From: a virus
Strand: one strand, 5' to 3'
DNA length: 64,000 bases
Virus record (IMG/VR): IMGVR_UViG_3300030419_005344
Location: 5,712-69,711 of that record
The notes beneath the pieces were generated by a model. That model saw nothing but the letters and a program-made list of their open reading frames with translations. It ran no database searches and was not told where the DNA came from. The position numbers and the translations under genes were made by a program. This document shows, in pieces, positions 38,540-61,380 of the stretch; position 1 is the first letter of the stretch; each line of letters opens with the position of its first letter.

Positions 38540-38541
38540 TT

Positions 38542-40411: not shown

Positions 40412-40412
40412 T

Positions 40413-41228: not shown

Positions 41229-41230
41229 TT

Positions 41231-43780: not shown

Positions 43781-43781
43781 T

Positions 43782-46036: not shown

Positions 46037-46679
46037 TGTATATAAACTCTGCTATTTTAAAATCTAATTCTGTATCTACATCCGTTGATTCCACATCATC
46101 TAAGAAAAACGGATAAAACTTATCTCCCACTATGTTCTTTCTAGAAAGCATACTTTTTCTAGTTATCAGATTAACTGCAAAATTTAAAGCATAATAGTTA
46201 GGTAAATCTTGAGATCTTGGATGATTGTTGGGGTCATAATTAACTGGCTGATCAGCGTGCCAGATGTATTCATGCACTTGATGTACTGTGGCTAATGAAT
46301 CATATTCATTTGGGAGTGACATATATTTGTTTATGGACTTTTTAAGAGAGCTATCCAAAAGTAGTGGGCTAGTTACATGTGCGTACAGAATATGCTCATC
46401 CTGTGTCATATTAGCTAAATACTCATACACCTCGTTCATAGGCACACTGTCAGAGGCGTAATATGGATCTCTTAAGTCTGTCTTAACATCATACTTGCTA
46501 GCTAACGACAACATTTTTTCGCAATCACTGCTCACATAGATATTACTTATATTATCCATTCTTAGTAATTGCTGTATTTTAATTTCTAGCAAATTTGAAT
46601 CAGCAAAAGGTCGAGAGTTTTTATTGACAACTCTTTTAGAGCCTTTTCTAACTGCTATAATCGCTGATAGATTATTCAT
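46014..46679 (-). CDS. neuA: Acylneuraminate/ulosonate cytidylyltransferase (copy 1)
   Basis: 'AIIAVRKGSKRVVNKN', 'VSSD', 'TSPL', 'DVDTELDFKIAE'. Confidence 0.85.
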   Translation of the reverse strand: MNNLSAIIAVRKGSKRVVNKNSRPFADSNLLEIKIQQLLRMDNISNIYVSSDCEKMLSLASKYDVKTDLRDPYYASDSVPMNEVYEYLANMTQDEHILYAHVTSPLLLDSSLKKSINKYMSLPNEYDSLATVHQVHEYIWHADQPVNYDPNNHPRSQDLPNYYALNFAVNLITRKSMLSRKNIVGDKFYPFFLDDVESTDVDTELDFKIAEFIYNERLQQR

Positions 46680-47577
46680 TAGTAAGCGCCTCAAAGCATT
46701 CTAATATGCCTTTGTCAATGTCAGTTTGGGGAGACCAGCCATGTTGAATTAGTTTTGAGTTGTTGCCACTAACCCCATGGGGATCCCCAGCATGTCCACC
46801 TATATTTTCTGCCTTTACAGATTTTTTAGATATTTTCAGTATTAATTGAATTAAGTTATTTAAAGTTATTTTGGAGCCCGAACATACGTTGTAAATTCCT
46901 TCTACTGATTTGTCTTCTAACGGTAGAAGCATTGCATTGATAACGTCATTTACATGTATCAGATCACGAAATCTTTCCAATGACCCTTTAACTTGAATAG
47001 TATCGCTCTTAATAGCTTGATTTAAAAAGATACTAACAAGACCTTGAGTTAGATTTTTTGTATCTTGATGTGGACCATAGCAATTAAATATCCTATAAAT
47101 AACACAGCGCATGTCAGGATTTAGTTGATTATAAAAATTTATGTAATGCTCCCCACACATCTTACTTATGCCATATGGAGATACAGGTTGTAATAAATCT
47201 GTTTCTTCAGCGTTTTCATTTTCTCCATATACAGCCATACTTGAGGAATAAATCACAGTTTGTACATTGTTTAAGGCAGCAAATTTAGAAACATTAAGTG
47301 TCCCTAATGCATTACATTCTAAATCAAATTTAAGATTGTCTAGGGCACCAAGAGTGCCTACTTGTGCAGCAAGATGGTATATTACCTCACATTTTGGTAA
47401 TTTTAATACAGATTCATAGTTTGTTATGTCACATGAAACACATTCAAAATTGTCGTAATGATATTTTGTAAATTTCTGACTTAAATCGCATAATACAATT
47501 CTGTGCCCAATTGACTTTAATTTATCAGCCAAATGTGTTCCTATGTAGCCAGCGCCGCCTGTGATCATTATATTCAT
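46672..47577 (-). CDS. NAD-dependent epimerase/dehydratase
   Basis: 'TGGAGYIG', 'HLAAQ', 'SSMAVYG', 'SPYGISK', 'RIFNCYGP'. Confidence 0.9.
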   Translation of the reverse strand: MNIMITGGAGYIGTHLADKLKSIGHRIVLCDLSQKFTKYHYDNFECVSCDITNYESVLKLPKCEVIYHLAAQVGTLGALDNLKFDLECNALGTLNVSKFAALNNVQTVIYSSSMAVYGENENAEETDLLQPVSPYGISKMCGEHYINFYNQLNPDMRCVIYRIFNCYGPHQDTKNLTQGLVSIFLNQAIKSDTIQVKGSLERFRDLIHVNDVINAMLLPLEDKSVEGIYNVCSGSKITLNNLIQLILKISKKSVKAENIGGHAGDPHGVSGNNSKLIQHGWSPQTDIDKGILECFEALTNE

Positions 47578-48729: not shown

Positions 48730-48731
48730 AT

Positions 48732-49709: not shown

Positions 49710-49717
49710 CCAACACC

Positions 49718-50398
49718 TCAAACAATATATCGGGCTGACCAAAGTTGTTCAGCTAATTCTATGTCATGAATATCATCAATATCAATTGACCTTTCTCTTG
49801 GTATTAATATACCTTTAACGTTACCTTTGAAAAAGTTTTTATTTTGCAACAACTTATTCCACTTAGCCATATGAAAACCACCACTTGGCTTATAATACTT
49901 TTTAATAAATTTACTGTTAGTAAGACCAGCCTCTAAGTTATCAAATACTGGCATAACCCAGCCTTCTTTCATGACACACGCTAGCTGTATAGTTTCCGGA
50001 ATTTCAGTCATGCTTAAAACAGAGTCTACATCCTCATTGAGAGCGTCTACTCCTTTTTGTATATCTTTGGATGATATGAACGGACAAGTTGGGAGAAAGT
50101 AAGCAAAAATATCATATTGTTCGTCTGTGTTCTCCATCAGATTTAACATGGCGTTCAGGGCTGTTGCTTTAACCGTTGCGTGCTCTTGTGGCCTATGGTG
50201 CCTCTCAACGTTTAAATCTTGCACAGCACTAAAAATTTTATCACTATCAGTAGATATAAGAACCTTATCAAAACACCCAGAATTAACAACTGCTTCTGTG
50301 GTCCACCTGATTAAAGGTTTTTCTCCGAGTGGATAAATATTCTTGTCTTTAAGCCTAGTAGAGCCGCCGCGAGCAGGGATCACTGCCAGTCTTTTCAT
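49718..50398 (-). CDS. neuA: Acylneuraminate/ulosonate cytidylyltransferase (copy 2)
   Basis: 'VIPARGGSTRLKDKN', 'KPLI', 'STDS', 'PTCPF', 'DIDDIHDIELAE'. Confidence 0.88.
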   Translation of the reverse strand: MKRLAVIPARGGSTRLKDKNIYPLGEKPLIRWTTEAVVNSGCFDKVLISTDSDKIFSAVQDLNVERHHRPQEHATVKATALNAMLNLMENTDEQYDIFAYFLPTCPFISSKDIQKGVDALNEDVDSVLSMTEIPETIQLACVMKEGWVMPVFDNLEAGLTNSKFIKKYYKPSGGFHMAKWNKLLQNKNFFKGNVKGILIPRERSIDIDDIHDIELAEQLWSARYIV

Positions 50399-51363
50399 TT
50401 CTTACTCCTAGTGAGGTATGGTGAGCCGCTAGAAATATCATCCATCATTTGTTCTAGCTCACGAAAATCATTGTCTGGTAATTGCTGCAATGGCATTCTT
50501 TCCTGCCTACTCATAACTCCCATAACATCCATGGCAGATTTGATGCCAAGATGCCAACCAAACTTATCTTTAATTGTGTTAAAGGGCAATTCTACTTTTT
50601 CTATGATATGATTACATTTTTCAGAATCACCATTTTTCCAAGCCTCATAAAAATCAACCTCAATAGATGGATTAAAGCCTCCAGTCCCTGATAGCCAACT
50701 GTGAACATGAGGAGTAAACTTCATCCATTGTTTCATGCCATATCCAGATGTAATAACAGCTAATCGATCACATAGTTTTCTTGAAACCTTATCTGTGTAC
50801 TCATCCTTTTTAGCATCTTCTTTAATGGCAATCACATTATCTAGATCCGCAATTTTGTCTAAGAGTTCCAAAGACCAATCAATGCGTGGTGGCTGACCGG
50901 GGATGCCATTGTTAAGAGGCATTTCGTGAATTAAGATTCCAACGTTACAGTTTTCTGAAACTTCTTTGTAGTGATTATAAACTTGCTCTTCAAAATATAC
51001 TTTCTCTCTAAATATCAGAGAAATAACGTCTGCACCAATCATTTCAGCGTGCTTGGCAAAATCAATAGATGTTTGCGTCGAGCAATGAAGCGGATCTGCC
51101 ACAATTACAACACAATCGTCATCGTTATAGCTTTTCACAGTTCGGGTAACTACCTCATTCAATTGCATAATTTCAATGTCAGATAGGATACTAAATCTAC
51201 TATTGTAGCCCATCACATAAAATACTTTTGCTCCACCCTCATATAAAAATTTAGTATACTGTTCAACAGCGGGCCAATCAACATGAGTGCCGTTCTCTGT
51301 AAAAGGAGTTATGATGGCAAATGCAGGTCCTTTTATTTTTTCTCTTATTTTATCTAAATTCAC
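50395..51363 (-). CDS. DHDPS/N-acetylneuraminate-lyase family class I aldolase
   Basis: 'AIITPF..G..VD', 'AKHAE.IGAD', Schiff-base Lys in 'NVIAIKED', 'IKSAM..MG...RMPL'. Confidence 0.8.
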   Translation of the reverse strand: MNLDKIREKIKGPAFAIITPFTENGTHVDWPAVEQYTKFLYEGGAKVFYVMGYNSRFSILSDIEIMQLNEVVTRTVKSYNDDDCVVIVADPLHCSTQTSIDFAKHAEMIGADVISLIFREKVYFEEQVYNHYKEVSENCNVGILIHEMPLNNGIPGQPPRIDWSLELLDKIADLDNVIAIKEDAKKDEYTDKVSRKLCDRLAVITSGYGMKQWMKFTPHVHSWLSGTGGFNPSIEVDFYEAWKNGDSEKCNHIIEKVELPFNTIKDKFGWHLGIKSAMDVMGVMSRQERMPLQQLPDNDFRELEQMMDDISSGSPYLTRSKK

Positions 51364-51668
51364 TTCTCACCTCTAAAAAAGTCTTCTGAGTTAATTGCTT
51401 TATCGCATATTAGCAAATCATAGTGTGGCTTTTCTCCCACACTTAAACCATGGTATTTACAACCCCATGACTTCAATTGATTTTCTGTTACCTCTCTCCA
51501 ATCAATGCCGCTTTGTGCGCCGCGAGCAGTATAATAGGTAATTTTATTACCTTCATCATATAATTTATTAATTTGTTCAATTCTGTTAAGATCAGGAACA
51601 GCATCAGGATACTTACGATCGCCCTTATAAAAACAGATTGTTTCATCCATATCGACATATATAATCAT
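51360..51668 (-). CDS. Minimal HAD phosphatase (capsule-biosynthesis type)
   Basis: 'YVDMDETIC', 'YTARG', 'T..QL..WG', 'KP.YD..ICDKAIN'. Confidence 0.8.
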   Translation of the reverse strand: MIIYVDMDETICFYKGDRKYPDAVPDLNRIEQINKLYDEGNKITYYTARGAQSGIDWREVTENQLKSWGCKYHGLSVGEKPHYDLLICDKAINSEDFFRGEK

Positions 51669-52018
51669 TAATCACCCTTCTTTATTCTGTAGCTATCAGA
51701 ATCAAAATGTTGTGTTGAAAACTCAAATAACTCTGTATCTTCTAGGGCGTACATTTGATGCCGCAGGCCTCGATAAACATGAAATCTGTCTCCGGGTCCT
51801 AATTCTATTTCGTTAGCGTTATTTAAGTTATCTTCATCTGAATATTTTACTAGCATCCTACCAGATTGAATGTAAAATACTTCGTCCTTTAAAATGTGAT
51901 AGTGCCATGAACAACGCTTACCTTTAACAAAGTAAAGCAATTTTCCACAATACTCTTCACAATTAACAATCCATTTTTCAAATCCCCATCCTTTAGGGAC
52001 AAAATTAATATTTTCCAT
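51668..52018 (-). CDS. Cupin, mannose-6-phosphate isomerase type II C-terminal-like
   Basis: 'VPKGWGFEKWI', 'CSWHYHILKDEVFYIQSG', 'RHQM', 'EFST.HFD.DSYR'. Start 52018. Confidence 0.8.
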   Translation of the reverse strand: MENINFVPKGWGFEKWIVNCEEYCGKLLYFVKGKRCSWHYHILKDEVFYIQSGRMLVKYSDEDNLNNANEIELGPGDRFHVYRGLRHQMYALEDTELFEFSTQHFDSDSYRIKKGD

Positions 52019-52019
52019 T

Positions 52020-52754
52020 TTATAAACCTTTGATTGACCAGCCACCATCTACTAATAGTGATTGCCCAGTGATATAAGAAGAGGCAGGAGACGCTAAAAA
52101 TAACGTTGGCCCAATAAGATCAGAGGGAGTACCCCACTTGTTCAGTACAGTTCTACGAGCGCGAGCGTCCCTCTTGTCTAGATTAGTCCAGCTTTCACCC
52201 GTCATTTTTGTTTTAATGTATCCGGGTGCTATGGCATTGACTCTAATTTTCTTTGAACCCAGATCTAATGACATAGATCGAGTTAATCCTGCCAGAGCAG
52301 TCTTGGAAGCTACATATGCTGGGTTATTAGGGAACGCTAGGGAGGCGTTTAAACTTGTTATATTGATAACGCTTGGCGTTGAGGACTTTTCCAAGAGTGG
52401 CACTAATTTGGTTGTTAACTTAAATGGAACATCAATATTCACAGCGAATGTCTTGTGCCAAGATTCAAAGCAATATGAACCTTCTTGTGGTATAGTTATG
52501 CCGGCACAATTTAATAACACGTCTAGTTTTCCGTGAGTTTTTTCTACAAAATCATATATGGTTTTTAAAGATTTCAAATCAGTTAAATCTAAACTAAACC
52601 GGTGCGACAAAGCGTATTCATTTTCTGGAAATGATATGTCGGCGCCAATCACAATCGCCCCCGATTGGGAAAGCGCGTTGGCCAACTCATAACCTATACC
52701 TCTTCCCGCGCCTGTTACAAGGCATATTTTGTTCTCAACAGAAAATATACTCAC
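52020..52754 (-). CDS. SDR family oxidoreductase (gluconate/2-deoxygluconate dehydrogenase-like)
   Basis: 'TGAGRGIG', 'LNCAGI', 'YVASK', 'NAIAPGY', 'YITGQSLLVDGG'. Confidence 0.88.
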   Translation of the reverse strand: MSIFSVENKICLVTGAGRGIGYELANALSQSGAIVIGADISFPENEYALSHRFSLDLTDLKSLKTIYDFVEKTHGKLDVLLNCAGITIPQEGSYCFESWHKTFAVNIDVPFKLTTKLVPLLEKSSTPSVINITSLNASLAFPNNPAYVASKTALAGLTRSMSLDLGSKKIRVNAIAPGYIKTKMTGESWTNLDKRDARARRTVLNKWGTPSDLIGPTLFLASPASSYITGQSLLVDGGWSIKGL

Positions 52755-53440
52755 TGCACAAACATCCTATTTAGTCTTACCTCTTCAGCTATCATATTAC
52801 CATCATATTTTATGGTGTTAACAATATAATCAGAAATTTCATCTGGCTCCATAAAGGTATCGTAGTCTTGACCTTGCACCAGTTCTCCCATTTTTGTCTT
52901 TATGGATCCCGGTGAAAAACTGTAAACTCTTATCCCATGTTCTTTTAGTTCTGAATATGCAGATCTGGTAAGACCTAATAACGCGTGTTTAGAGGCGCAG
53001 TAAACAGAAGTGTTAGCAAAACCAGCATATGCAGATGAAGACGCGATATTAACAATCCTGCCCCATTGCTTATTTTTCATATGTGGGATAACACTTTTCA
53101 TCATCACAAACGGGGCACGAACATTAACATTGAACGTTTCATTAAAAGTCTCCTCTGTTGTGTCTTCTATTTTCGATACTGGAAAGACGCCGGCGCAGTT
53201 AATTAAAATATCTGGCTTGACCTCTTCCGCCAGTCTTTTTATATCGGACGTGTTTTGAAGATCTAAACATTTAGATCCTAAACAAGATTTATTTGATTGT
53301 TCTATTTGCTTTAAAATGTTTGCATTACGCCCAGTTATAAAGACTTTAACACCGGAAGCAGTCAACTTGTTGATTATTGAACGACCAAGGCCGCCGGTGG
53401 CACCAGTAACTAATGCTACCTTATTATTTAGTGCTGTCAT
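52751..53440 (-). CDS. SDR family oxidoreductase
   Basis: 'TGATGGLG', 'INCAGV', 'GRIVNIASS', 'YCASKHA'. Start moved to 53440. Confidence 0.88.
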   Translation of the reverse strand: MTALNNKVALVTGATGGLGRSIINKLTASGVKVFITGRNANILKQIEQSNKSCLGSKCLDLQNTSDIKRLAEEVKPDILINCAGVFPVSKIEDTTEETFNETFNVNVRAPFVMMKSVIPHMKNKQWGRIVNIASSSAYAGFANTSVYCASKHALLGLTRSAYSELKEHGIRVYSFSPGSIKTKMGELVQGQDYDTFMEPDEISDYIVNTIKYDGNMIAEEVRLNRMFVQ

Positions 53441-54287
53441 TGTAGTTTTGGAACCAATAAGGTGTAGACAGTTTTTCACGGGCGGGCATCTCAGAGTCAT
53501 AGATTCTCTTAACACCATCCCCAAGGGCAGCGGATATGGTTCTAATGTCTCGGACCAACATGTTTAATCCAGATAGGCCCAAAGATGCTGATTGGTCGGA
53601 ACCGTACATTGAGCGATCAACTGTGATATGGCGCTCAATACTAGTAGCACCGAGGGCGGTGGCTGCTAAAGAAATTTGCACCCCTCTCTCATGACCGCTG
53701 TAACCAACTTTTACTCCATATCTTTCGCGTAGTGTAGCCATAACATTTAGGTTTGCCTCTTCATTGTTCATTGGGTACGAAGAGTTACAATGCATCAATT
53801 CAAAGGGGCAATCATGTGATCTAAAAATCTGTACTGCCGCATCAATTTCTTCTAAAGTACTCATACCAGTTGAAATAAACGTGTATTTTCCTTCCTCAGC
53901 AATCTTGTGTAGAAGCGGAGTAACTCTAAGCATTGGCGAAGCAACCTTATTATATTTATGATTATACTGTCTCATAAATTCTTGACTCTCAAGATCCCAA
54001 CAAGATACAAACCATTCGATTCCTACTTCTTTACAGTGTGAATCAATTTCATCATACTCTTCTTTAGAGAATTCAAGACCTAATTTTTGTTCTCGATTAG
54101 TTTTACCAAAAGGACTCTCTCTAGGTCTATCTAGATCCTCTGGAGTGTAGACAAGTTCCACACTTCTCTTTTGAAATTTAACGGCATCGCAGCCAGCAGA
54201 CTTTGCCTCGTCAATTAATCTTTTCGCTAATTCAATGCTTCCGTTATGATTGATGCCTATTTCGGCAATCACTAAAACATCACTCAT
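53424..54287 (-). CDS. neuB: N-acetylneuraminate (nonulosonate) synthase family, short form without the AFP-like domain
   Basis: 'IAEIGINHNG', 'AVKFQ', 'KVAS', 'ISTGMS', 'HC.SSYP', 'GYSGHE', 'IERHITVDR...GSD'. Confidence 0.93.
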   Translation of the reverse strand: MSDVLVIAEIGINHNGSIELAKRLIDEAKSAGCDAVKFQKRSVELVYTPEDLDRPRESPFGKTNREQKLGLEFSKEEYDEIDSHCKEVGIEWFVSCWDLESQEFMRQYNHKYNKVASPMLRVTPLLHKIAEEGKYTFISTGMSTLEEIDAAVQIFRSHDCPFELMHCNSSYPMNNEEANLNVMATLRERYGVKVGYSGHERGVQISLAATALGATSIERHITVDRSMYGSDQSASLGLSGLNMLVRDIRTISAALGDGVKRIYDSEMPAREKLSTPYWFQNYNDSTK

Positions 54288-54343
54288 TTTAACCTCTTTG
54301 TGCTATTTGTGAGCAAATTTAAATTGCTCTTTGTTATACTACT

Positions 54344-54372
54344 ATTATAGCACCAAAAGTAAGCCTTGTCAA
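54344..54372 (-). promoter_or_regulatory. Perfect sigma70 consensus promoter with extended -10
   Basis: Minus strand reads TTGACA-AGGCTTACTTTTGGTGC-TATAAT (17-nt spacer, TGn extension) in the gap upstream of neuB. Confidence 0.9.
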
Positions 54373-54373
54373 A

Positions 54374-55018
54374 TCATATTTTTGAATTTATTACGTTTAA
54401 TAATTTACTTGTCATTAATCTAGATATTAGCTTTTGTTCTTCAGTAGCATTGTGACATGGACTACATTCTTTTGGTCTGTCTTGGTAATAATGAGTCCTT
54501 GGCACAGGTTCCAAATCAAAACCAAAAAGATTAGGTTGAATACCGGCTTTTACACTTAAGAGCACCGCAATGGTTCCTACTTGTAAATTTTGTGTTGAAT
54601 TATATAAAAAGTATTTTTTCAATTCTGGAATGGAATTATATTCGAACAAATACAAATCGTTACTGTTGTGCGTATTGGAGCGTCTGTTAAGCCACGGCCC
54701 AAGATCCGGTGCTGTATATAAGATTTTGCTGTCTCTTAGGTCTCTAACAAAATTTGGAGGTGAATTAGAATACCCCATTTTCTTTATATCATTATTGTTA
54801 AAGACGTGATTGTTCACCACTCTCAAGGTTGTTTTACCACCAACATCCTGTTCATACCCATCTGTAGGGGAACGATTAAACCTAATCACTTCGTCATGCG
54901 AATCAATCAAATTTCCCAGTTTAGAATTTAATAAATTACCGCTAGCGCCTACAATAGCCACTTTTCCTTGTAGAGATAAAAGCGGGGAGACGTAGGGAAT
55001 TTTATAATTAGTCTTCAT
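54374..55018 (-). CDS. GT29-family sialyltransferase-like protein
   Basis: Sialylmotif-L-like '[45 protein letters not shown]', S-like 'GTIAVLLS...LFGF', then 'HYY' and a downstream His. Confidence 0.85.
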
Positions 55019-55068
55019 GCGTTTTGCATTCCTTTATTAGCTTTTAGTTTTGTAACTTGAAAATATTT

Positions 55069-55878
55069 TTACAATAATAAAGTTATTGACTTATAAAGAT
55101 TGTCGTTTGAAAACCATTCCCAATATTCTTGATTGTCATATGAAGGCAAGTCAGCCGAAGTGGCATTCATTTCTTCTAACATTCTATACCAGTTTTTATT
55201 CTGTAGTGGCATTCTAGAGGGCAGCTTCAAGTGGTCACTAATAACAATCGGCCATGAGTTCATTGCCATGGCTTCCCACATTCTTATAGTGCTAGGGCCT
55301 GTTCCGCGAGGACATAGACTATACTTCGTGTCCCCTAGAATTTCTACATATCGGCGGCGATTCTCCTCTTGTCTAGTCGGACTAGATTCAAAATGCCAGC
55401 CGCCCGTATCCACAACATAGCAATCAGCCCTTTTGCTAAAAATATCAAAAATTTTCTGCCTCACCGGATGGGTTGTGAAGGCGCCCACAAAACTAAAAGT
55501 GTATCTTCTTTCATCCCATGGCTTTATCAGTGACGTATCATAACTACAGGCATAGTGTGGTATTGGTAAATATGAATCAAAAACTGTTGCGTGTGGTGTA
55601 AAAACCGTGTGCCCGTTAAAGTTTAAATTTTTAACTTGTATATGCTGGCAAACAAAAAATAACTTTCTTCCTTTTAGATCGTGACATACTTTGTTAATTA
55701 CGGCCTGTACCCAGCCAACTCCTCTGTGGTTTATATTCCAAGCTAAAGGCATCGCAACATAAACATGATCTGTATATATCTGATTTTTATTGTCTAAAAG
55801 TTGATTATAAATTGTTTCCTCTGTTTTTACAGGGTCATCAACAACATCAAAATTTTGTACTTCATATATTTGTAGCAT
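55069..55878 (-). CDS. Exostosin-family (GT47) glycosyltransferase
   Basis: 'FSFVG...HPVRQKI', 'Y...L..TKYSLCPRGTGPSTIRMWEAM.....P.VISD.L.LP'. Confidence 0.8.
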   Translation of the reverse strand: MLQIYEVQNFDVVDDPVKTEETIYNQLLDNKNQIYTDHVYVAMPLAWNINHRGVGWVQAVINKVCHDLKGRKLFFVCQHIQVKNLNFNGHTVFTPHATVFDSYLPIPHYACSYDTSLIKPWDERRYTFSFVGAFTTHPVRQKIFDIFSKRADCYVVDTGGWHFESSPTRQEENRRRYVEILGDTKYSLCPRGTGPSTIRMWEAMAMNSWPIVISDHLKLPSRMPLQNKNWYRMLEEMNATSADLPSYDNQEYWEWFSNDNLYKSITLLL

Positions 55879-56705
55879 TATAGCCTTTTATATTTATCTA
55901 TTAAAATTTTAGAATTACCTTGAAACTGCAAATTGTGAAGCCTTACTTTCTTATCGTGCCTTAGATTGTATCCATACGGCTTATTATCTATAAATTCTAT
56001 CTCTTTTACACCATTAGAAAATTTATATTCATCATCGTAATAGTTCGCTGGATTGTTTATACTGTGGTCGAAACTTGTGCCATCCGGTAGTAGGTTGGTA
56101 ATTATCATGGCCTTGTTTCTTCTAGTAAAGTGCCACAACGCTGTCATGTCACACACACCACCGGGTAGATTATTATTTTTGTGATAATTCCACTTTTCCA
56201 AAAGCTTTCGAAATTCAAATGAATCATTGTACATTTCTATTAAATAATTACAAAACTTATCTAACATGCCCAACGACCAATATGATACTTCACCAGTAGC
56301 AGCTTGTCTAAAATATGGTTGTTTTTTGGGGATAGCCAAAGCTAGATTTGGTTTTCCAATTGCACTATAAACATCAGACAGATTAGAAAATATTAAATTG
56401 TCTGAGTCTCCGTAAAATATATCATCACACTTCATCATTTTGGCAGCATTCCTAACTGCAATCCAGCGAATAAAACACCATTCTTCAAATTTTTGACCTC
56501 CGGTGTGCATATGTTTATACAACTTTAGAAACTTTTCTATGTCTTGGTAACACTCGTTGATGTGAATATGCCTTACGTTATTAAGATTACCAAGATGTTC
56601 ATTGTCGTTATCACCAATAAGCACAACGTCATTTTTCCTTGAAGCTTGTTCAATTGTGGTCTTTAGGTAGGGTTGAAACCCGGCGTGGAAGAAAAATGTC
56701 TTCAT
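55878..56705 (-). CDS. Putative GT-A fold glycosyltransferase
   Basis: 'E.WCFIRW', DxD 'GDSDNL', 'VCDMT', 'LQFQG..K'. Located within the GT run. Confidence 0.55.
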   Translation of the reverse strand: MKTFFFHAGFQPYLKTTIEQASRKNDVVLIGDNDNEHLGNLNNVRHIHINECYQDIEKFLKLYKHMHTGGQKFEEWCFIRWIAVRNAAKMMKCDDIFYGDSDNLIFSNLSDVYSAIGKPNLALAIPKKQPYFRQAATGEVSYWSLGMLDKFCNYLIEMYNDSFEFRKLLEKWNYHKNNNLPGGVCDMTALWHFTRRNKAMIITNLLPDGTSFDHSINNPANYYDDEYKFSNGVKEIEFIDNKPYGYNLRHDKKVRLHNLQFQGNSKILIDKYKRL

Positions 56706-57322
56706 CTTGTTAAAGTAACCTCAGCTAGTTTTTTATATTTTGATTTTTCATACATTTCGACAAAACCAAATGATTTAATAAGTTCAATGCATCTAATTGT
56801 GTCTTCTATTGTCTTACCCGAACAAAAATGATGAAATTCAACACAAATCTGCCTAACAGATTCCGGTATGTATTTTAAGTTTTCTATGACACTGTACTCT
56901 GAGCCCTCTATATCCATCTTAATGACAGAAATATTATCATATGTCTTAAACAGAGTAGGCAAATCAATTGTTTCTGCTAGGTGATGTTCATATTTTGAGA
57001 CTGAATTGTGATCGGGCAATTCTGACTCCGACACATGATCTGGATTTGTGTTACAGAACAACCTTATGATATCATCATTTGCGTGTGTAAGGGCTTTTTT
57101 TAGCAAATAAAAATTGTGTAAATTTGTTTGAGATTCAATAAACTTGTGACTTTTTGGGGTTGGGTCTATGCCAACCACGTTGCAAGAAAGCCTTTCTATA
57201 AGTTCCAAGTCAAAACTAATATCTTCACCAACGCCAGCAGATATTATGGTTGAGCCGCGAGGAATAAGGTCCAGATTTACAAGCCAACCTCCATAATCAG
57301 TGCCAAGCAATTCAATTGCCAT
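56702..57322 (-). CDS. FkbM-family methyltransferase
   Basis: 'YGGW', 'SAGVGEDISFD', 'DPTP', 'KMDIEGSEY', 'QICVEFH'. Confidence 0.85.
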   Translation of the reverse strand: MAIELLGTDYGGWLVNLDLIPRGSTIISAGVGEDISFDLELIERLSCNVVGIDPTPKSHKFIESQTNLHNFYLLKKALTHANDDIIRLFCNTNPDHVSESELPDHNSVSKYEHHLAETIDLPTLFKTYDNISVIKMDIEGSEYSVIENLKYIPESVRQICVEFHHFCSGKTIEDTIRCIELIKSFGFVEMYEKSKYKKLAEVTLTR

Positions 57323-58127
57323 TCAAAAGCTCCAACAAAATTTTATAATTTTTGTTTTCAGTTTGTAAAAAAAGTGCCTTTATTTTGTCCACCAAAAATT
57401 GTCCAAAATTTTCATACTCTAACTCTCGGCTTGTGTGAACATGAAAGTTAACTGCTGGCCTGTTACCAAACCAAACTCTATCATCCTTAACGTGCAACTT
57501 GTCTAGCCTGCTTTTTGTAGAGTGATTGTTAAACCTCCACCATCCTATGTTATAGTTGATTGGCAGATTTAAAGAAACATAATTTCTTTGAACGAACTCC
57601 AGCGGCTGCTGTTCAAAATAAAAACCATACTTTTTGTAATCTACTGACAACTGATGCCATGTATCAAGAAAATGTTTATTTTTTATGTGAAACATCCCAC
57701 CGTTATACAAGCCGTGTTGAGCTTCAACCTGCCAGTTGTTTGTCATGTGTTGGCATATTGCAGCGTCGATATTTTTATTGTTGAACAACTCAAGCACCTC
57801 ATTTTCCAGAGGGTTAACAAACACCATATCAGAGTCTAAAAATAATACCTGCCCATACTCTTCAAGTGACTTATAACAAGCGTCAAACTTAGTCATCATC
57901 ACTTTCATCCAATTATCTTTTTTAACTTCGTCGTTAATATTATGGTCACAATCATCAGTATCTATAACGTTTAGGCAAGTTGTGTTTTTTAAATTATAAA
58001 ATTTATCATACGCAACTTTGTCACATGATAAAAACCAATGACACTTGTGATATTGTTCAAAGCTAGTTTTTAACAAAATAAATTCTGATATAGTTTTTTG
58101 AGTCACAACTGACGCTACTGGTATCAT
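57312..58127 (-). CDS. Nucleotide-diphospho-sugar transferase (GT77/GT8-like GT-A)
   Basis: 'K...C...L....VLFLDSDMVF', 'YNGGMF', 'FEQQ.L', 'YNIGWW', 'FHVH'. Confidence 0.65.
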   Translation of the reverse strand: MIPVASVVTQKTISEFILLKTSFEQYHKCHWFLSCDKVAYDKFYNLKNTTCLNVIDTDDCDHNINDEVKKDNWMKVMMTKFDACYKSLEEYGQVLFLDSDMVFVNPLENEVLELFNNKNIDAAICQHMTNNWQVEAQHGLYNGGMFHIKNKHFLDTWHQLSVDYKKYGFYFEQQPLEFVQRNYVSLNLPINYNIGWWRFNNHSTKSRLDKLHVKDDRVWFGNRPAVNFHVHTSRELEYENFGQFLVDKIKALFLQTENKNYKILLELLNGN

Positions 58128-60115
58128 AAAATTACCGAAGACTGTTGCTCTGTCGTAGAGTTTCTATACATTTTAAAAATTTCTCTTTCTTCGTCTTCTT
58201 TCCAGCTAAAGTTTTCTGGGTTTGTTGAAATTCCAGTAGGATTAAAATAGTATAAGCCAAGAATCGAGCTAATCTTCTTAAACCTGCTTCCCTGACTTGC
58301 TCCTCTTAACCACATCTCCCAGTCACCAGCAGACCTGTACTTCGCATCAAACTCACCATATCTATCGTGATAACTTTTACGCCACATCGGTGAAGCGTGA
58401 GGCATGTTTGACATCTTAAGATTATCTAAACTAAACTGTGGGAAATTATAGCGACGACCTTCCGAACTATTGTTTTCAAATGTTTCATTAGGCTTGTCTG
58501 TGATTGCCATGTCAGCATACACTAGGTCTACGTCATCGTTCGTATAAAGCTCTCTAGCGTGTCTCTCAAGCGAGTTGATTGCCTTTCGGTCATCTAGGTT
58601 AGCGTTGGTAAGATACTCACCAGAAGACATCTCAACGCCCATATTCCACACTCCGTAAATACCGGGGTCTTCTTCAAGGCGCTTGTAAACAATATTGTCT
58701 GGATACTTTTCTAGGTATTCTTGAATAACTTCTTCTTCGCTACCGGGCGAGGCAGCGTTTATCAAAATAAGTTCACACTTATCTTCAAAGATAGTCTGTC
58801 TTGTAATATCTTCCAAGAACGGTCTAATATATTCGTCTCCATCATAAACAGAGGTAATGATGGAAATCTTTGGTAGTTCTTCTACCGAAACTGTAAGCGC
58901 TGGGTCCGGAGTGTTAATCATATAGGAAAGATTCTTGTGCTTCTTATCCCAACTAAACTCTTCACGCACCCAACTTTGTAGATACTCAGCCTTTGCTAGC
59001 CACTTGTCGTAGTGTTTTCTAACCTGCCGCAAGCGCATCTTAAACGAACCTTCGGTTGGGTAGCACCACATGGTATCCTTCTCTAGTACACCGGGCCATA
59101 CAGCGTGCTGCTGAATTGGACCGAGTGTGTAGTCCACCTCGGCAAAGTAAGCCTTACGCTTGTTCTTGTTTTTCTTAGAAGTTGTTTTGAACGGAGCATA
59201 AAGAAAATCAGCCTGCCCAGACCAGCCGGGAGCAATAATTGGAAGCCCACTATAAGCGGCCTCAAAGAGTGGCAGGCCGAAGCCTTCACCATGTGTCAAC
59301 GAAACTAAAGCTTTAATCTTTGGGTGATTGTATAGCGAGTGAATTTCAGCCTCGGACATGTCTCCGTGAAGCAGATAAATCTTACACTTACGCTCTTCAA
59401 GGCTTGGAATAGCCTGTGATACAACTTGCTCAATGTATTCGCGGTCTACAACAGAGTTGTTCTTCAGACTTGTCTTAACAACAAGGCCAACTTCTTGGTC
59501 GTGATTTTCCTCGACAAACCACTTGATAAGGTTGTCCATGTTCTTGCGAGGACCCCACTGTGAAATAGCTAGGTAGTTAAAATCATAATCAAGGTCTAGC
59601 GACACATCAATTGTCTCGTGCTCTTTTACGGGGTATCCTGCTACCTCAACCGGCACATCACATTTAAGATGCATTGGTTGACCAGTCTGCTTGTTTTGGC
59701 CATGATATTCTGTCATGACAAAGCCATTCTTGGAGTGCTCGGAAATGGTAATTACCTTGTCCATAGCGTTGCACATCTCAAGCCAAGTTGGAGAAACCTT
59801 GTTGGTTTCAATCCCGGCGGTCACCCCAATGTTAATCGGTGCCATTCTCTGCCACTCATTGGGGATAGTAACCTGTACTGAGATGTCGTAGGGCAGCTTT
59901 TGATGTAAGTGCTGAGCGCCGGCTGCGACCTTAGCATCAATCCACCTTCTTTCTTCGTCATTAATGGCTAGCCAGCCAGTTTCGCCCCAGCCAGTCGGAA
60001 GAATATGAATGTCTAACTCTGCTTCCTGCAAACGAAGAGCGCGCAGCACAAAACGTGTGTGCTCGCCGTATCCTGACTGTGATAGGGCAGGCCCTCTAAC
60101 TAATACTTTTTTCAC
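58124..60115 (-). CDS. Bifunctional glycosyltransferase: GT4 (N-terminal) plus GT2 (C-terminal)
   Basis: 'SGYG', 'RKN', 'GEGFGLPLFEAA', followed by 'ISIITSVY...NANLDD...DWEMWLR'. Confidence 0.85.
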   Translation of the reverse strand: MKKVLVRGPALSQSGYGEHTRFVLRALRLQEAELDIHILPTGWGETGWLAINDEERRWIDAKVAAGAQHLHQKLPYDISVQVTIPNEWQRMAPINIGVTAGIETNKVSPTWLEMCNAMDKVITISEHSKNGFVMTEYHGQNKQTGQPMHLKCDVPVEVAGYPVKEHETIDVSLDLDYDFNYLAISQWGPRKNMDNLIKWFVEENHDQEVGLVVKTSLKNNSVVDREYIEQVVSQAIPSLEERKCKIYLLHGDMSEAEIHSLYNHPKIKALVSLTHGEGFGLPLFEAAYSGLPIIAPGWSGQADFLYAPFKTTSKKNKNKRKAYFAEVDYTLGPIQQHAVWPGVLEKDTMWCYPTEGSFKMRLRQVRKHYDKWLAKAEYLQSWVREEFSWDKKHKNLSYMINTPDPALTVSVEELPKISIITSVYDGDEYIRPFLEDITRQTIFEDKCELILINAASPGSEEEVIQEYLEKYPDNIVYKRLEEDPGIYGVWNMGVEMSSGEYLTNANLDDRKAINSLERHARELYTNDDVDLVYADMAITDKPNETFENNSSEGRRYNFPQFSLDNLKMSNMPHASPMWRKSYHDRYGEFDAKYRSAGDWEMWLRGASQGSRFKKISSILGLYYFNPTGISTNPENFSWKEDEEREIFKMYRNSTTEQQSSVIL

Positions 60116-61380
60116 ACTACCTCCTTAAGCTGCCAAGCCTTGTAGCCTTTTCTAGTATCCCACGAACCAAACCTTTCAGTAATGTCCTCGATAAGGTTAA
60201 GCCAGTTCTTCTGGAAATCATCGTAGTTGTAATTATCTCTAACATGCTTCATGCCGAGCATGCCCAATCGTTCCCTTTCTTCAACAGGCATGTTGTAAAA
60301 GGTTCTCATGGCCTCTAGGAACTGTTCCTCACTAATTCTATCCTCGTATATGTATGGAACGGTCTGTGAGCCGATAAGGGCCTTAGCGAACGGCTCAATA
60401 CCAATGCCAAACCACTGCTCACCATCTGTGACCTGCTCTTGTAGGCCGCCGGTCATGTTAACAATGATAGGCGTTCCACAGGAAAGAGACTCAAGGGTGG
60501 CGAGGCCAAAGCCCTCGGCGTCTGAAATATTGATTGTGCAGTCCGCCATGTTGTACATCATGGATAGTGCTTCAGGGGGAAGCTTCTTGGTTGACAGCAC
60601 AACACGGCCGTCAGTCATACCCATGTCTTCTATCATTTGGTTAAGGTCTTGGCCATTGGGGTCCTTGGGGTCTGTATGCAGAATTAAACACACATTTTCA
60701 GGACCAACCTCTTCGGCAAACTTGTTAAACCAGTGCAAAAGCGTACCAGAGTGCTTGCGGCGAGCATTACGATTATTCCAAAAGAACACTGTTCGGCCTG
60801 CATGCTCTGGAAAACTTTCCTCGATGAACTTAGCAACGTGCTCTTGGTCAACCTTGCGGAAAACCTTATCGTTAACAGCATGAGGAATGTAGTAATTTTC
60901 TACCTCAGGTGCCACCTTGTCTACGATGTCATGCGTAACCTTTGAAATAGACGCGATAACATCAGTAGAACGATACCACTTGGCGTTATACTTTGGTGGA
61001 GGGTAGTTATCCCAAACATGATAGTACACCATTGGAATAAGCGGACGGATTTCGTTTTCAATCTGCCACAACCAAGGGTAGAAGCGCGGGTCCGTCATAA
61101 ACCAAAGCACATCTGGCTTCTCGGTCCAGAGCACAGAGCGAACAGACTCTGCCGAGCCGTAGCCATCTACAGGGTAAACAACCCAATCCTTCTCACCCCA
61201 TCTGTCATCTGTGATGTATTGCGGGTCGTAGTTCGGGTGCTTAATGGCGCCGCCAAAACAAATGAAACGATACTTCCCGGTAAGAATCAAAGTTTCAATA
61301 AAGTTTCGTGTCTGTGTTCCAACGCCCGATGGTGCCAACGGATGGTCGGCTAATACTAAAATAGTTTTCTTCTCGCTCAT
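60112..61380 (-). CDS. GT4-family glycosyltransferase
   Basis: 'DHPLAPSGVGTQ', 'NRNARRK', 'YNMAD...SDAEGFGLATLESL..GTPII..TGGL'. Confidence 0.88.
   Translation of the reverse strand: MSEKKTILVLADHPLAPSGVGTQTRNFIETLILTGKYRFICFGGAIKHPNYDPQYITDDRWGEKDWVVYPVDGYGSAESVRSVLWTEKPDVLWFMTDPRFYPWLWQIENEIRPLIPMVYYHVWDNYPPPKYNAKWYRSTDVIASISKVTHDIVDKVAPEVENYYIPHAVNDKVFRKVDQEHVAKFIEESFPEHAGRTVFFWNNRNARRKHSGTLLHWFNKFAEEVGPENVCLILHTDPKDPNGQDLNQMIEDMGMTDGRVVLSTKKLPPEALSMMYNMADCTINISDAEGFGLATLESLSCGTPIIVNMTGGLQEQVTDGEQWFGIGIEPFAKALIGSQTVPYIYEDRISEEQFLEAMRTFYNMPVEERERLGMLGMKHVRDNYNYDDFQKNWLNLIEDITERFGSWDTRKGYKAWQLKEVV

What the first reader, a model, noticed from the sequence alone, without database searches (positions are those of the whole stretch)
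53424..55018. Eukaryote-type GT29 sialyltransferase next to neuB: a viral sialylation pathway
Seen: clear sialylmotif-L-like, S-like and HYY motifs in a 214-aa soluble protein with no Golgi TM anchor. It is adjacent to neuB, with two neuA genes nearby. Established: characterised bacterial sialyltransferases mostly belong to GT38/42/52/80, whereas GT29 is mainly eukaryotic. Inference: synthesis, activation and transfer of a sialic-like acid are all phage-encoded. An acidic glycan coat could reduce adsorption to particles or grazers, or alter host recognition.
Basis: partly seen in the sequence, partly recalled or inferred. Interest (0 to 1): 0.85.

Follow-up and report, generated by a model that had tools for sequence, protein, structure and literature searches.

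The report
Phage sialyltransferase-like enzyme with sugar-acid pathway
An uncultured marine phage carries a small, anchor-less relative of animal sialyltransferases next to genes that make and activate a sialic-acid-like sugar, so the phage probably attaches such an acidic sugar to some target, which remains untested and unidentified.

Summary
ORF 54374-55018 (-) is a 214-aa soluble GT29 protein: Pfam PF00777 at 96 bits, all four sialylmotifs, and an AlphaFold model whose best PDB matches are all animal sialyltransferases. It lies 86 nt upstream of a NeuB-family synthase, with two CMP-transferase genes nearby, in a low-GC glycan island of a T4-like marine phage.

"Eukaryote-type" is not supported. 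The protein lacks the membrane anchor and the conserved cysteines. Its nearest relatives are about 210-aa proteins from phage contigs and a few bacterial MAGs. Bacterial GT29 was described in 2018.

"Sialic acid" is unproven, because no NeuC was found and NeuB scores below the equivalog cut-offs. In 20 related phage loci, GT29 lies near a CMP-transferase (15), a NeuB-type synthase (11) or a KdsA-type synthase (6), and never near both synthases. GT29 proteins 89% identical sit beside either synthase. The donor is therefore a CMP-ulosonic acid whose identity varies between phages.

None of the 36 proteins scanned has a membrane segment, and five GT29-bearing phage records lack Wzx, Wzy and priming transferases. 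A second ORF (45326-46036) has a Maf-like fold. I favour cytoplasmic glycosylation of phage proteins, with host-surface or DNA glycosylation as rivals.

The scan has noted phage GT29 before: 221 notes in at least 173 genomes. My paper searches found no description.

The parts
54374..55018 (-). 214-aa soluble GT29-family (sialyltransferase-like) transferase. It is the last gene of the glycosyltransferase run.
   Evidence: PF00777 at 96 bits. Motifs L, S, III and VS align to ST3Gal-I. AF2 pLDDT is 91.9, and the top Foldseek hits are all GT29. No TM segment.
54344..54372 (-). Perfect TTGACA-N17-TATAAT promoter-like site with TG before the -10 hexamer. It starts 2 nt after the GT29 stop and lies 57 nt ahead of the NeuB ATG.
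   Evidence: 12 of 12 match. It is one of only 2 perfect matches in 64 kb, where 0.06 are expected; 1 of 100 shuffles reached 2. Sequence read.
53424..54287 (-). 287-aa NeuB-family PEP-dependent ulosonic-acid synthase, short form. Only the NeuB domain is found.
   Evidence: PF03102 E 3.3e-70, and no other family. NeuB_NnaB scores 254.5 bits (cut-off 399.65) and PseI 180.8 (cut-off 340.25). The best PDB hit is the 290-aa 6ncs, E 7.9e-41.
52751..53524 (-). SDR oxidoreductase. The listed TTG start overlaps NeuB, and the Pfam match begins at residue 35, so the true start is probably later.
   Evidence: PF00106 E 6.8e-47.
52020..52754 (-). SDR oxidoreductase. KduD and gluconate-5-dehydrogenase models are among the best hits, all below cut-off.
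51668..52048 (-). 126-aa cupin protein. It is conserved next to NeuB in L003 (75% identity).
   Evidence: PF07883 E 9.5e-8.
51360..51668 (-). 102-aa protein read by eye as a small HAD-type phosphatase, from its DMDET start motif. No HMM hit supports the label.
   Evidence: 0 families in Pfam and NCBIfam. Homologues at 48-57% identity lie near GT29 in 5 of 20 viral loci.
50395..51363 (-). DHDPS/NAL-superfamily (class I aldolase-like) enzyme of unknown role. It accompanies both NeuB-type and KdsA-type modules.
   Evidence: PF00701 E 1.1e-21. All NCBIfam hits are far below cut-off. Present in 11 of 20 viral loci.
49718..50398 (-). CMP-ulosonic-acid synthetase (CTP_transf_3). This type is the most constant neighbour of GT29.
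   Evidence: PF02348 E 1.6e-25. PDB NeuA 9ftb E 1.5e-25, well ahead of KdsB at 1.6e-10. Present in 15 of 20 viral loci and 5 of 5 phage records.
48732..49742 (-). 336-aa protein with a weak GmhA/SIS-like N-terminal part.
   Evidence: TIGR00441 E 2.6e-7, 30.8 bits, far below cut-off. No Pfam hit.
46014..46694 (-). Second CTP_transf_3 cytidylyltransferase.
   Evidence: PF02348 E 1.1e-14. PseF model 75 bits, below cut-off.
45326..46036 (-). 236-aa protein with a Maf/MptE-like fold. It is a candidate second CMP-ulosonate transferase.
   Evidence: No Pfam or NCBIfam hit. AF2 pLDDT 83.7. VIA-align: Maf glycosyltransferase 5mu5_A Z 12.9, rmsd 3.7, 174 aligned; Cst-I 2p56 Z 9.6. Foldseek found nothing at E<=0.001.
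55069..55878 (-). Soluble GT47/exostosin-like glycosyltransferase immediately upstream of GT29. The pair is kept in L002 and L006.
   Evidence: PF03016 E 5.9e-13 and PF24785 E 6.6e-11.
55878..56705 (-). 275-aa protein of no known family. It is conserved beside GT29 in L003, L004 and L018.
56702..57322 (-). FkbM-type methyltransferase.
   Evidence: PF05050 E 2.3e-8.
57312..58127 (-). Nucleotide-diphospho-sugar transferase (PF03407).
   Evidence: E 4.7e-6, 27.2 bits, cut-off 22.
58124..60115 (-). 663-aa GT4 + GT2 fusion glycosyltransferase.
   Evidence: PF00535 E 3.9e-15 and PF00534 E 5e-6. 53-57% identical homologues lie in L003, L004 and L006.
60112..61380 (-). GT4 glycosyltransferase.
   Evidence: PF00534 E 2.5e-13; phrog_2170.
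62238..62265 (-). Second perfect sigma-70-like site, upstream of the exonuclease gene and the glycosyltransferase run.

Best explanation
The 214-aa ORF is an intact, probably active, short soluble member of glycosyltransferase family GT29. It belongs to the anchor-less clade found in phages and bacteria.

Proposed mechanism, all inferred:
1. The phage's NeuB-family synthase condenses PEP with a sugar or sugar phosphate to give a 2-keto-3-deoxy (ulosonic) acid. Here this is most likely nine carbons and probably not Neu5Ac.
2. Neighbouring SDR, cupin, HAD-like and DHDPS-like enzymes tailor or dephosphorylate it.
3. A CTP_transf_3 enzyme activates it as the CMP-sugar.
4. GT29 transfers it, with the motif-VS histidine (H189) as base, onto a glycan built by the soluble glycosyltransferases encoded just upstream (GT4, GT4+GT2, PF03407, GT47-like). 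GT29 probably adds the terminal cap.

Everything is soluble and no lipid-carrier machinery is phage-encoded, so I place the reaction in the cytoplasm of the infected cell. The likeliest acceptor is a phage structural protein.

My sub-odds are: GT29 membership 0.95; CMP-ulosonate donor 0.8; nine-carbon non-Neu5Ac sugar in this phage 0.6; a virion protein as acceptor 0.4. The overall confidence given is for the enzyme-plus-pathway reading, with the acceptor left open.
For: Shown:
- Family membership, motifs and fold.
- Purifying conservation across 54 homologues at 35-95% identity, 51 of 54 carrying PF00777.
- A profile search finds 133 / 1582 / 7395 cluster representatives at E<=1e-30 / 1e-10 / 1e-3, and the best 150 are mostly 195-225 aa.
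- The three nearest Atlas clusters are 94-100% PF00777 and 75-90% viral among members with a record.

Linkage within +-10 kb of GT29 in 20 viral loci (three triplets or pairs are near-copies):
- A 49718-type CMP-transferase in 15 of 20, NeuB in 11 of 20, a DHDPS-like gene in 11 of 20.
- KdsA-like in 6 of 20, never together with NeuB. The three loci with neither synthase are two contigs cut short and L021.
- CTP_transf_3 in 5 of 5 GT29-bearing phage records, next to GT29, including two records rated 100% complete.
- LR756508 (484 kb) also has NeuB 1.2 kb from GT29.

Solubility and missing export genes:
- None of the 36 window proteins scanned reaches the TM threshold, apart from an over-extended start of one SDR.
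- Wzx 0 of 5 records (control 13 of 14), Bac_transf 0 of 5 (control 9 of 14), Wzy_C 0 of 5 (control 9 of 14).

Hint towards protein glycosylation: ORF 45326-46036, just after the second CMP-transferase, best matches the Maf glycosyltransferase fold (Z 12.9). That Maf enzymes glycosylate flagellin with nonulosonic acids is recalled, not read here.

Synteny exonuclease-GT4-GT4GT2-...-GT29 is shared with L003, L004 and L006.
Against: - No activity, donor or acceptor has been measured.
- NeuB and both CMP-transferases score below NCBIfam equivalog cut-offs, so the sugar is unnamed.
- GT29 proteins 89% identical sit beside NeuB (L007) or KdsA (L019), so adjacency to neuB does not fix the donor.
- The complete G005 genome has neither synthase.
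- Both perfect promoter-like sites are sigma-70 type. That suggests host-RNAP (early) expression rather than co-expression with virion genes.
- The nearest cellular homologues lie in a bacterial locus with methyltransferases and a GT8, which looks like surface-polysaccharide synthesis.
- The structural proteins in the window have no marked Ser/Thr-rich tract. The highest value is 0.40 in 40 residues, and one 395-aa ORF ends in a short S/T tail.
- The capsid and most of the genome are missing, since the record is 24% complete.
- The Maf-like ORF has no homologue in the 23 related loci, and Foldseek gave it no match at E<=0.001.
Confidence: 0.58

Rival explanations
1. The island remodels the host's surface polysaccharide (LPS, capsule or S-layer glycan) during infection. 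The aim would be, for example, to block superinfection or to stop progeny sticking to debris. GT29 would cap a host lipid-linked glycan on the cytoplasmic face, and host flippases and ligases would export it.
For: - Iyer et al. 2021 (PMC7824862, passages read) interpret glycosyltransferase and NDP-sugar clusters of jumbo cyanophages as diversifying outer polysaccharides.
- Both perfect promoter-like sites are sigma-70 type.
- The closest cellular homologue (Opitutales MAG, 53% identity, sister clade with 100/97 support) sits among methyltransferases and a GT8 on a contig that also carries an Lhr helicase.
Against: - No Wzx, Wzy/ligase or priming phosphoglycosyl transferase was found in the window record or in 4 other GT29-bearing phage records, two of them rated complete. 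Controls were positive in 9-13 of 14 genomes.
- No membrane protein was found among 36 window proteins.
- A lytic T4-like phage has little time to renew a cell surface (inference).
Confidence: 0.28
2. The glycosyltransferases, including GT29, hypermodify the phage's DNA with a glycan that contains an ulosonic acid, protecting it from host nucleases.
For: - Pyle et al. (bioRxiv 10.1101/2023.12.21.572611, passages read) report phage GTs that put mono- to trisaccharides on 5hmC, including ulosonic (for example Kdo) and uronic acids.
- An exonuclease gene heads the GT run.
- Two 2OG-Fe(II) oxygenases lie in the island.
Against: - Tet_JBP was found in 0 of 5 records, two of them complete. The control rang nowhere, so this is weak.
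- The two oxygenases match PhyH and a 'sporadic carbohydrate cluster' model, not 5mC oxidases.
- That paper does not mention GT29, CMP or sialic acid (0 occurrences each).
- The Maf-like fold points to protein substrates.
Confidence: 0.1
3. Strict first reading: a eukaryote-derived sialyltransferase, acquired from a eukaryote or a eukaryotic virus, that transfers Neu5Ac in a classical sialylation pathway.
For: The best PDB matches by sequence and fold are animal sialyltransferases. GT47-like and PF03407 neighbours are families best known from eukaryotes (the family lore is recalled).
Against: - The PDB holds no bacterial GT29, so those best hits do not indicate origin.
- There is no anchor and no motif-L cysteine, as in the bacterial GT29 that Petit et al. 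place basal to eukaryotic ones.
- The nearest relatives are phage and bacterial proteins at 41-95% identity, against about 20-23% for animal enzymes.
- No NeuC was found, and NeuB is below the equivalog cut-off.
Confidence: 0.04

Closest known systems
Bacterial GT29-like sialyltransferase sequences (Petit et al. 2018, Sci Rep 8:2946, PMC5811610; passages read)
   Same: All four sialylmotifs are present. There is no transmembrane domain and no conserved motif-L/S cysteines. Function is unknown.
   Different: Those 23 sequences were mostly alphaproteobacterial (19 of 23), and the paper does not contain the words phage or virus. The clade here is mainly on phage contigs. The paper's sequence list is in supplements I could not open, so overlap with this clade is unknown.
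Animal Golgi sialyltransferases, CAZy GT29 (ST8Sia-III 5bo9, ST3Gal-I 2wnb, ST6GalNAc-II 6apl, ST6Gal-I 4mps/6qvs)
   Same: Same Pfam family, same fold (Foldseek E 1e-11 to 1e-7, TMq 0.57-0.66) and motifs L, S, III and VS with the histidines in place.
   Different: The protein is 214 aa against catalytic domains of about 270-320 aa. It has no anchor, stem or disulfide cysteines, and is 20-23% identical. It is cytoplasmic rather than luminal. Donor and acceptor are unknown.
Campylobacter CstII / Cst-I (CAZy GT42)
   Same: Related GT-A-variant fold and soluble bacterial CMP-sialic acid transferases (Foldseek E 1.5e-5 and weaker).
   Different: The match is much weaker than to GT29, and no GT42 Pfam hit appeared at E<=0.01.
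Maf glycosyltransferase (5mu5, Magnetospirillum), relevant to the neighbouring ORF 45326-46036
   Same: Best structural match of that ORF (Z 12.9). Both sit beside a CMP-sugar synthetase gene. Maf acts on a protein in the cytoplasm (recalled).
   Different: The ORF is 236 aa against 632 aa, is 10% identical and has no sequence-family hit. The function is inferred from fold only.
Virion O-glycosylation of mycobacteriophages (Freeman et al. 2023, Cell Host Microbe; seen only as a reference entry and one describing sentence in PMC12619734)
   Same: Phage-encoded soluble glycosyltransferases decorate the phage's own capsid and tail proteins.
   Different: I know of no ulosonic acid, GT29 or sugar-synthesis pathway reported there (recalled). 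The hosts are Actinobacteria.
Phage DNA glycan hypermodification clusters (Pyle et al., bioRxiv 2023 / Cell Rep 2024; passages read)
   Same: Phage gene clusters with several GTs, and ulosonic acids (Kdo) among the sugars transferred.
   Different: Those clusters are defined by a C5-methyltransferase and a 5mC dioxygenase, which I did not find here (weak).
Canonical bacterial Neu5Ac (NeuC-NeuB-NeuA), Kdn and Kdo (KdsD-A-C-B) pathways
   Same: A PEP-dependent synthase plus a CMP-activating enzyme. The HAD-like gene suggests a phosphorylated intermediate, as in the Kdn and Kdo routes (recalled).
   Different: No NeuC and no KdsA in this record. Extra SDR, cupin and DHDPS-like enzymes are present, and all equivalog scores are below cut-off.

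Membership tests
CAZy GT29 / Pfam PF00777 | Score above the Pfam gathering threshold | tested here: met
   96 bits against 23, E 3.2e-27, profile positions 58-271 of 272. 91.9 bits in the six-frame search.
CAZy GT29 / Pfam PF00777 | Sialylmotif L (CMP-sugar binding) | tested here: met
   Residues 18-74 align to ST6Gal1 and ST3Gal1 motif L at E 9e-14 to 8e-12. The profile gives E 1.2e-17.
CAZy GT29 / Pfam PF00777 | Sialylmotifs S, III (H-Y-aromatic-acid) and VS (H...E) | tested here: met
   Domain 2 of the profile alignment to 2wml pairs them. That piece scores only 12.1 bits, i-E 0.93, on its own. G148, G166, F167, H176, Y177 and H189 are invariant in 19 of 19 sequences, and E194 is conserved at 90% or more.
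CAZy GT29 / Pfam PF00777 | GT-A-variant fold of solved GT29 enzymes | tested here: met
   pLDDT 91.9. All 16 rows listed up to rank 30 are GT29, with E 1.4e-11 to 1.9e-7.
CAZy GT29 / Pfam PF00777 | Transfer of a sialic acid from a CMP donor | not testable with these tools
   Indirect only: a CTP_transf_3 gene lies near GT29 in 15 of 20 loci and in 5 of 5 records.
Eukaryotic (Golgi) GT29 subtype | Type II membrane anchor and stem | tested here: not met
   The highest 19-residue hydropathy mean is 1.29 and there is no TM candidate. The Pfam match starts at residue 21.
Eukaryotic (Golgi) GT29 subtype | Conserved disulfide cysteines in motifs L and S | tested here: not met
   The Cys of RRCAVVGN in 2wml aligns to Val. 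The window has Ser where some relatives have Cys in motif S. Petit 2018 describes the same for bacterial GT29.
Bacterial-type GT29 (Petit et al. 2018) | Four sialylmotifs, no TM, no conserved cysteines | tested here: met
   description. I could not place the protein on their tree because the sequences are in closed supplements.
CAZy GT42 (CstII-like) | Sequence-family match or best structural match | tested here: not met
   No GT42 family among Pfam hits at E<=0.01. Foldseek matches are 6 orders of magnitude weaker than those to GT29.
Bacterial Neu5Ac pathway (NeuC-NeuB-NeuA) | NeuB equivalog | tested here: inconclusive
   Pfam NeuB domain E 3.3e-70, but TIGR03569 scores 254.5 bits against a cut-off of 399.65. 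The short form resembles the 290-aa 6ncs.
Bacterial Neu5Ac pathway (NeuC-NeuB-NeuA) | Hydrolysing UDP-GlcNAc 2-epimerase (NeuC, PF02350) | tested here: not met
   0 matches in the 69.7-kb record, with the control positive in 11 of 14 genomes. The record is only 24% of the genome, so the gene could lie elsewhere or be supplied by the host.
Kdo pathway (KdsA/KdsB) | KdsA (PF00793) near GT29 | tested here: not met
   No match in this record, but present in G004 and G307 and in 6 of 20 related loci.

The most novel reading that the evidence does not exclude
Many marine phages 'sialylate' their own particles. A phage-dominated clade of minimal cytoplasmic GT29 enzymes, here joined by a Maf-like enzyme, would cap virion-protein glycans with CMP-activated eight- or nine-carbon acidic sugars. 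The synthase modules (NeuB-type or KdsA-type) would be swapped between phages while the transferase stays nearly the same. Phages would then be a major reservoir and shuttle of the GT29 family, which animals use for cell-surface sialylation.
Probability: 0.3. Interest if true: 0.85.

Novelty: new variant of a known kind. Interest (0 to 1): 0.6.

Why it matters
GT29 is the family behind all animal sialylation, and its bacterial members are known only as sequences. A short, soluble clade that lives largely on phage genomes, always beside a CMP-sugar synthetase, would give several things:
- a minimal, easily expressed GT29 for enzymology and glyco-engineering;
- a testable case of phage-made acidic glycans in the ocean, on virions, host surface or DNA;
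- a new angle on where GT29 came from.

The finding that almost identical GT29 proteins sit beside either a nine-carbon or an eight-carbon synthase makes donor promiscuity directly testable.

Tried and rejected
- Nearly identical phage DNA: megablast of 40000-62000 against 50,697 phage records gave no match. The single-sequence pattern scan of viral contigs gave nothing, and only the alignment-based scan worked.
- Tree with eukaryotic GT29: I could not obtain eukaryotic or Petit-type bacterial sequences. The 'longer' search with A1 gave 1 protein among 8000 candidates scored, and the paper's supplements are closed. The tree therefore has only phage, MAG and unlabelled metagenome rows and is midpoint-rooted. 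Its bootstrap had not settled and 16 of 42 inner branches are open. I used 24 of 120 eligible representatives (every fifth) and left out near-copies L008, L009, L014 and L015.
- GT29 in bacteria: only 1 of 301 genomes of the phylum of G001 (G001 itself) scored over the cut-off. This is a sample, not proof of rarity.
- Names for homologues: the listing of cluster members gave no organism names.
- Expression: no RNA holder is listed. One run guessed to be RNA holds two contigs on NeuB (53785-54171). The guess is unverified, so I draw nothing from it. Parts of the stretch without cover are not evidence.
- Tet_JBP search: 0 of 5, but the control rang nowhere, so it says little.
- Ser/Thr-rich acceptor tracts in 10 structural ORFs: none marked.
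- Foldseek on the Maf-like model gave no match at E<=0.001. The Maf match rests on VIA-align.
- Fusion partners of GT29, from 8 longer representatives: one with a methyltransferase, one with an HMGL-like domain, and three with repeated PF00777 matches along the chain (2-4 stretches), which I read as tandem GT29. These are suggestive only.
- Literature: searches for phage GT29 or phage sialylation found no description. One phage paper annotates an alpha-2,3/2,8-sialyltransferase without analysis (PMC12772287, passage read).


Full report
WHAT IS THERE

The window is bases 5712-69711 of a 69.7-kb IMG/VR virus record that CheckV rates 24% complete. All long ORFs lie on the minus strand. The record is a tailed phage of the T4-like kind:
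- ORF 20560-22356 matches baseplate wedge phrog_219 (E 2.4e-20).
- ORF 22431-22823 matches the gp25-like phrog_261 (E 1.2e-20).
- There is also a weak late-sigma hit, an exonuclease and a PhoH-like gene.

By the gp6-like protein, the nearest records are Microcystis phage Mel-JY01 (31.9% identity), the Flavobacterium phages 'immuto' (31.6%) and the 484-kb uncultured phage LR756508 (28.6%). Between about 34.3 and 61.4 kb lies a run of sugar-nucleotide and glycosyltransferase genes. From 38 to 58 kb its G+C is 0.34-0.40, against 0.41-0.48 elsewhere.

ORF 54374-55018 (-) encodes 214 aa.

Sequence evidence:
- Pfam gives only PF00777 (Glyco_transf_29): E 3.2e-27, 96 bits against a cut-off of 23.
- phmmer against the PDB returns 8 distinct sequences, all animal sialyltransferases, aligned over motif L.
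- A profile of 19 family members (A1) aligns to pig ST3Gal-I in two pieces. These cover motif L, then motifs S, III (thYyed against HHYWEN) and VS (vHn..e against VHDGDFE). The second piece is weak on its own (12.1 bits).
- The residues concerned (H176, Y177, H189) are invariant in 19 of 19 sequences.

Structure evidence:
- The AlphaFold2 model is confident (mean pLDDT 91.9).
- Its 16 listed Foldseek matches up to rank 30 are all animal GT29 enzymes (E 1.4e-11 to 1.9e-7). GT42 CstII and Cst-I follow.
- No membrane segment is present.

Neighbours:
- The NeuB-family gene (53424-54287, PF03102 E 3.3e-70) follows after 86 nt.
- Two CTP_transf_3 genes lie at 49718-50398 and 46014-46694.

WHAT KIND OF GT29

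The label 'eukaryote-type' does not fit. The protein has no anchor, and the motif-L cysteine of animal enzymes aligns to valine. Petit et al. 2018 (PMC5811610; passages read) described 23 bacterial GT29 sequences with exactly these features and placed them basal to the eukaryotic ones. That paper never mentions phages or viruses.

The relatives of the window protein are as follows:
- 54 proteins of 154-230 aa at 35-95% identity, from marine and other metagenomes; 51 of 54 carry PF00777.
- 20 loci on IMG/VR viral contigs, out of 102 pattern hits. Two of them are records of 459 and 442 kb rated 100% complete.
- 3 bacterial MAG contigs, out of 66 pattern hits: two Opitutales and one Flavobacteriaceae.
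- The three nearest ESM-Atlas clusters are 94-100% PF00777. Among members with a record they are 75-90% viral.
- A full HMMER scan with A1 finds 133, 1582 and 7395 cluster representatives at E<=1e-30, 1e-10 and 1e-3. The last figure surely includes distant GT29. The best 150 are mostly 195-225 aa.
- Among 301 genomes sampled from the phylum of one MAG, only that MAG scored above the cut-off.

In a midpoint-rooted tree of 45 rows, the window groups with viral locus L002 (support 96/88). This pair is sister to the two Opitutales sequences (support 100/97). The Flavobacteriaceae sequence falls elsewhere among the phage rows. The bootstrap had not settled and many forks are open. The Opitutales locus looks chromosomal (Lhr helicase) and holds methyltransferases and a GT8. 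The clade is therefore shared by phages and a few bacteria, with phages in the majority in what I could see.

WHICH SUGAR

I compared 36 window proteins with the 23 fetched loci by tblastn. I then searched five phage records with Pfam models and the loci with a KdsA-like protein from L005.

Within 10 kb of GT29 in the 20 viral loci:
- a CMP-transferase of the 49718 type in 15;
- a NeuB homologue in 11;
- a KdsA-like gene in 6;
- a DHDPS-like gene in 11;
- the small HAD-like gene in 5.

NeuB and KdsA never occur together. The three loci with neither are two contigs that end close to GT29 (L002, L010) and L021. L007-L009, L013-L015 and L010/L011 are near-copies, so the independent count is about 14.

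CTP_transf_3 is present next to GT29 in 5 of 5 records. The complete G004 genome has no NeuB but carries GT29, HAD-like, DHDPS-like, KdsA and CMP-transferase genes in a row. The complete G005 has only the CMP-transferase beside GT29. The GT29 proteins of L007 (next to NeuB) and L019 (next to DHDPS-like and KdsA) are 89% identical.

The constant partner is therefore CMP activation. The synthase is exchangeable between a nine-carbon type and an eight-carbon type.

In this window the synthase is NeuB-type:
- It scores higher on the NeuB model than on the PseI model, but below both equivalog cut-offs.
- It resembles the 290-aa short form 6ncs.
- The adjacent CMP-transferase matches NeuA structures better than KdsB.
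- No NeuC-type epimerase is found in the record.

I therefore read the donor as a CMP-activated nine-carbon ulosonic acid that is probably not Neu5Ac. Kdn-like, or a new tailored form, are guesses. The DHDPS-like enzyme accompanies both module types and has no role in the textbook pathways. It may act on the 2-keto-3-deoxy end of the sugar (speculation).

WHERE THE SUGAR GOES

This is the open part.

Points for a cytoplasmic, non-lipid-linked process:
- None of the 36 proteins scanned has a membrane segment, apart from an over-extended start of one SDR.
- Wzx, Bac_transf and Wzy_C are each absent from 5 of 5 GT29-bearing phage records, two of them complete. Controls were positive in 13, 9 and 9 of 14 genomes.

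A second candidate transferase exists. ORF 45326-46036 lies immediately after the second CMP-transferase. It has no family hit, but 17 homologues were found. Its model (pLDDT 83.7) best matches the Maf glycosyltransferase of Magnetospirillum (Z 12.9, rmsd 3.7, 174 residues). The next matches are an MptE-like kinase (Z 11.4), Cst-I (9.6) and animal sialyltransferases (6.2-7.4). Foldseek alone gave nothing at E<=0.001. Maf enzymes put nonulosonic acids on flagellin in the cytoplasm (recalled). This tilts me towards protein glycosylation, and in a phage the obvious proteins are its own.

Points against:
- The only two perfect TTGACA-N16-18-TATAAT sites in the 64 kb lie on the coding strand. One is between GT29 and NeuB (54372-54344) and one is ahead of the exonuclease/GT run (62265-62238). 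Only 0.06 are expected. They suggest host-polymerase, probably early, transcription.
- The structural proteins present have no marked Ser/Thr tracts.
- The capsid gene is not in the record.

Rivals:
- Remodelling of the host envelope is the reading Iyer et al. give for jumbo-phage polysaccharide clusters.
- Glycan hypermodification of phage DNA can include Kdo-type acids (Pyle et al.). I found no Tet/JBP gene, but that search had no positive control.

OCCURRENCE

The 1.6-kb stretch is held whole by two marine metagenome runs of one study, which may be the source. Parts of it are held by 18 further runs, giving 17 studies in all, labelled marine, seawater or estuary. One run of another study holds near-identical contigs over 50055-54224.

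KNOWN OR NEW

Bacterial GT29 sequences are in print. So are phage glycan clusters, phage virion glycosylation (reference seen) and DNA glycans. Seven full-text searches found no description of a phage GT29 or a phage sialylation-type pathway. One paper lists an annotated alpha-2,3/2,8-sialyltransferase in an Azotobacter phage without analysis. This scan has noted phage GT29 on other DNA many times: 221 notes in at least 173 genomes. I class the finding as a new variant of a known kind: a known enzyme family in a minimal soluble form, embedded in a phage-encoded, modular ulosonic-acid pathway.

VERDICT

GT29 membership is near certain, a CMP-ulosonate donor is likely, and the sugar's identity and the acceptor are open. 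Interest 0.6.

Noticed in passing
window 45326-46036 (-): A 236-aa ORF with no family hit, lying right after the second CMP-transferase, has a Maf/MptE-like fold (5mu5_A Z 12.9; Cst-I Z 9.6). It is a candidate second ulosonate transferase, possibly acting on protein. It has no homologue in the 23 related loci.
   Followed up: yes
window 54344-54372 and 62238-62265 (-): These are the only two perfect TTGACA-N16-18-TATAAT sites in the 64 kb. Both are on the coding strand, at the heads of the sugar-synthesis block and of the exonuclease/glycosyltransferase block (0.06 expected).
   Followed up: partly
window 50395-51363 (-); L003-L009, L011, L017, L019, L020: A DHDPS/NAL-superfamily enzyme travels with GT29 whether the synthase is NeuB-type or KdsA-type. 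It has no role in textbook ulosonic-acid pathways.
   Followed up: partly
L007 and L019 (GT29 at 10001-10618 in each): GT29 proteins 89% identical sit beside NeuB in one phage contig and beside DHDPS-like plus KdsA in another. This indicates module swapping or a donor-tolerant transferase.
   Followed up: partly
window 51335-52135 (cupin 51668-52048 and the end of the HAD-like gene): In three marine metagenome runs the summed contig depth here is about 20-160, against about 0-10 on neighbouring genes, with many variants. This small cupin gene seems to be shared by many organisms or phages in seawater.
   Followed up: no
window 38000-58000: The glycan island has G+C of 0.34-0.40, against 0.41-0.48 in the structural and flanking regions.
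   Followed up: no
window 9693-19022, 22851-30356, 4859-8614 (-): Giant ORFs of 3109, 2501 and 1251 aa flank the baseplate genes and have no Pfam hit at E<=0.001.
   Followed up: no
window 31371-32558 (-): A 395-aa ORF of no PHROG family ends in a short Ser/Thr-rich tail (..QASSSTTSESTETQGE). This recalls the C-terminal glycosylated tails reported for mycobacteriophage virion proteins. It is a weak hint only.
   Followed up: no
L012 9554-10129 and 10943-11548; proteins P0164, P0173, P0189, P0162, P0078: GT29 occurs as two neighbouring copies in one phage contig. In metagenome proteins, three longer representatives show repeated PF00777 matches along the chain (read as tandem GT29), one is fused to an HMGL-like domain and one to a methyltransferase.
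   Followed up: partly
LR756508.1 322772-325405 (484-kb uncultured phage): The only record of 50,697 in the phage collection with a GT29 match (29.5% identity) also carries a NeuB homologue 1.2 kb away and a related gp6-like baseplate protein.
   Followed up: partly
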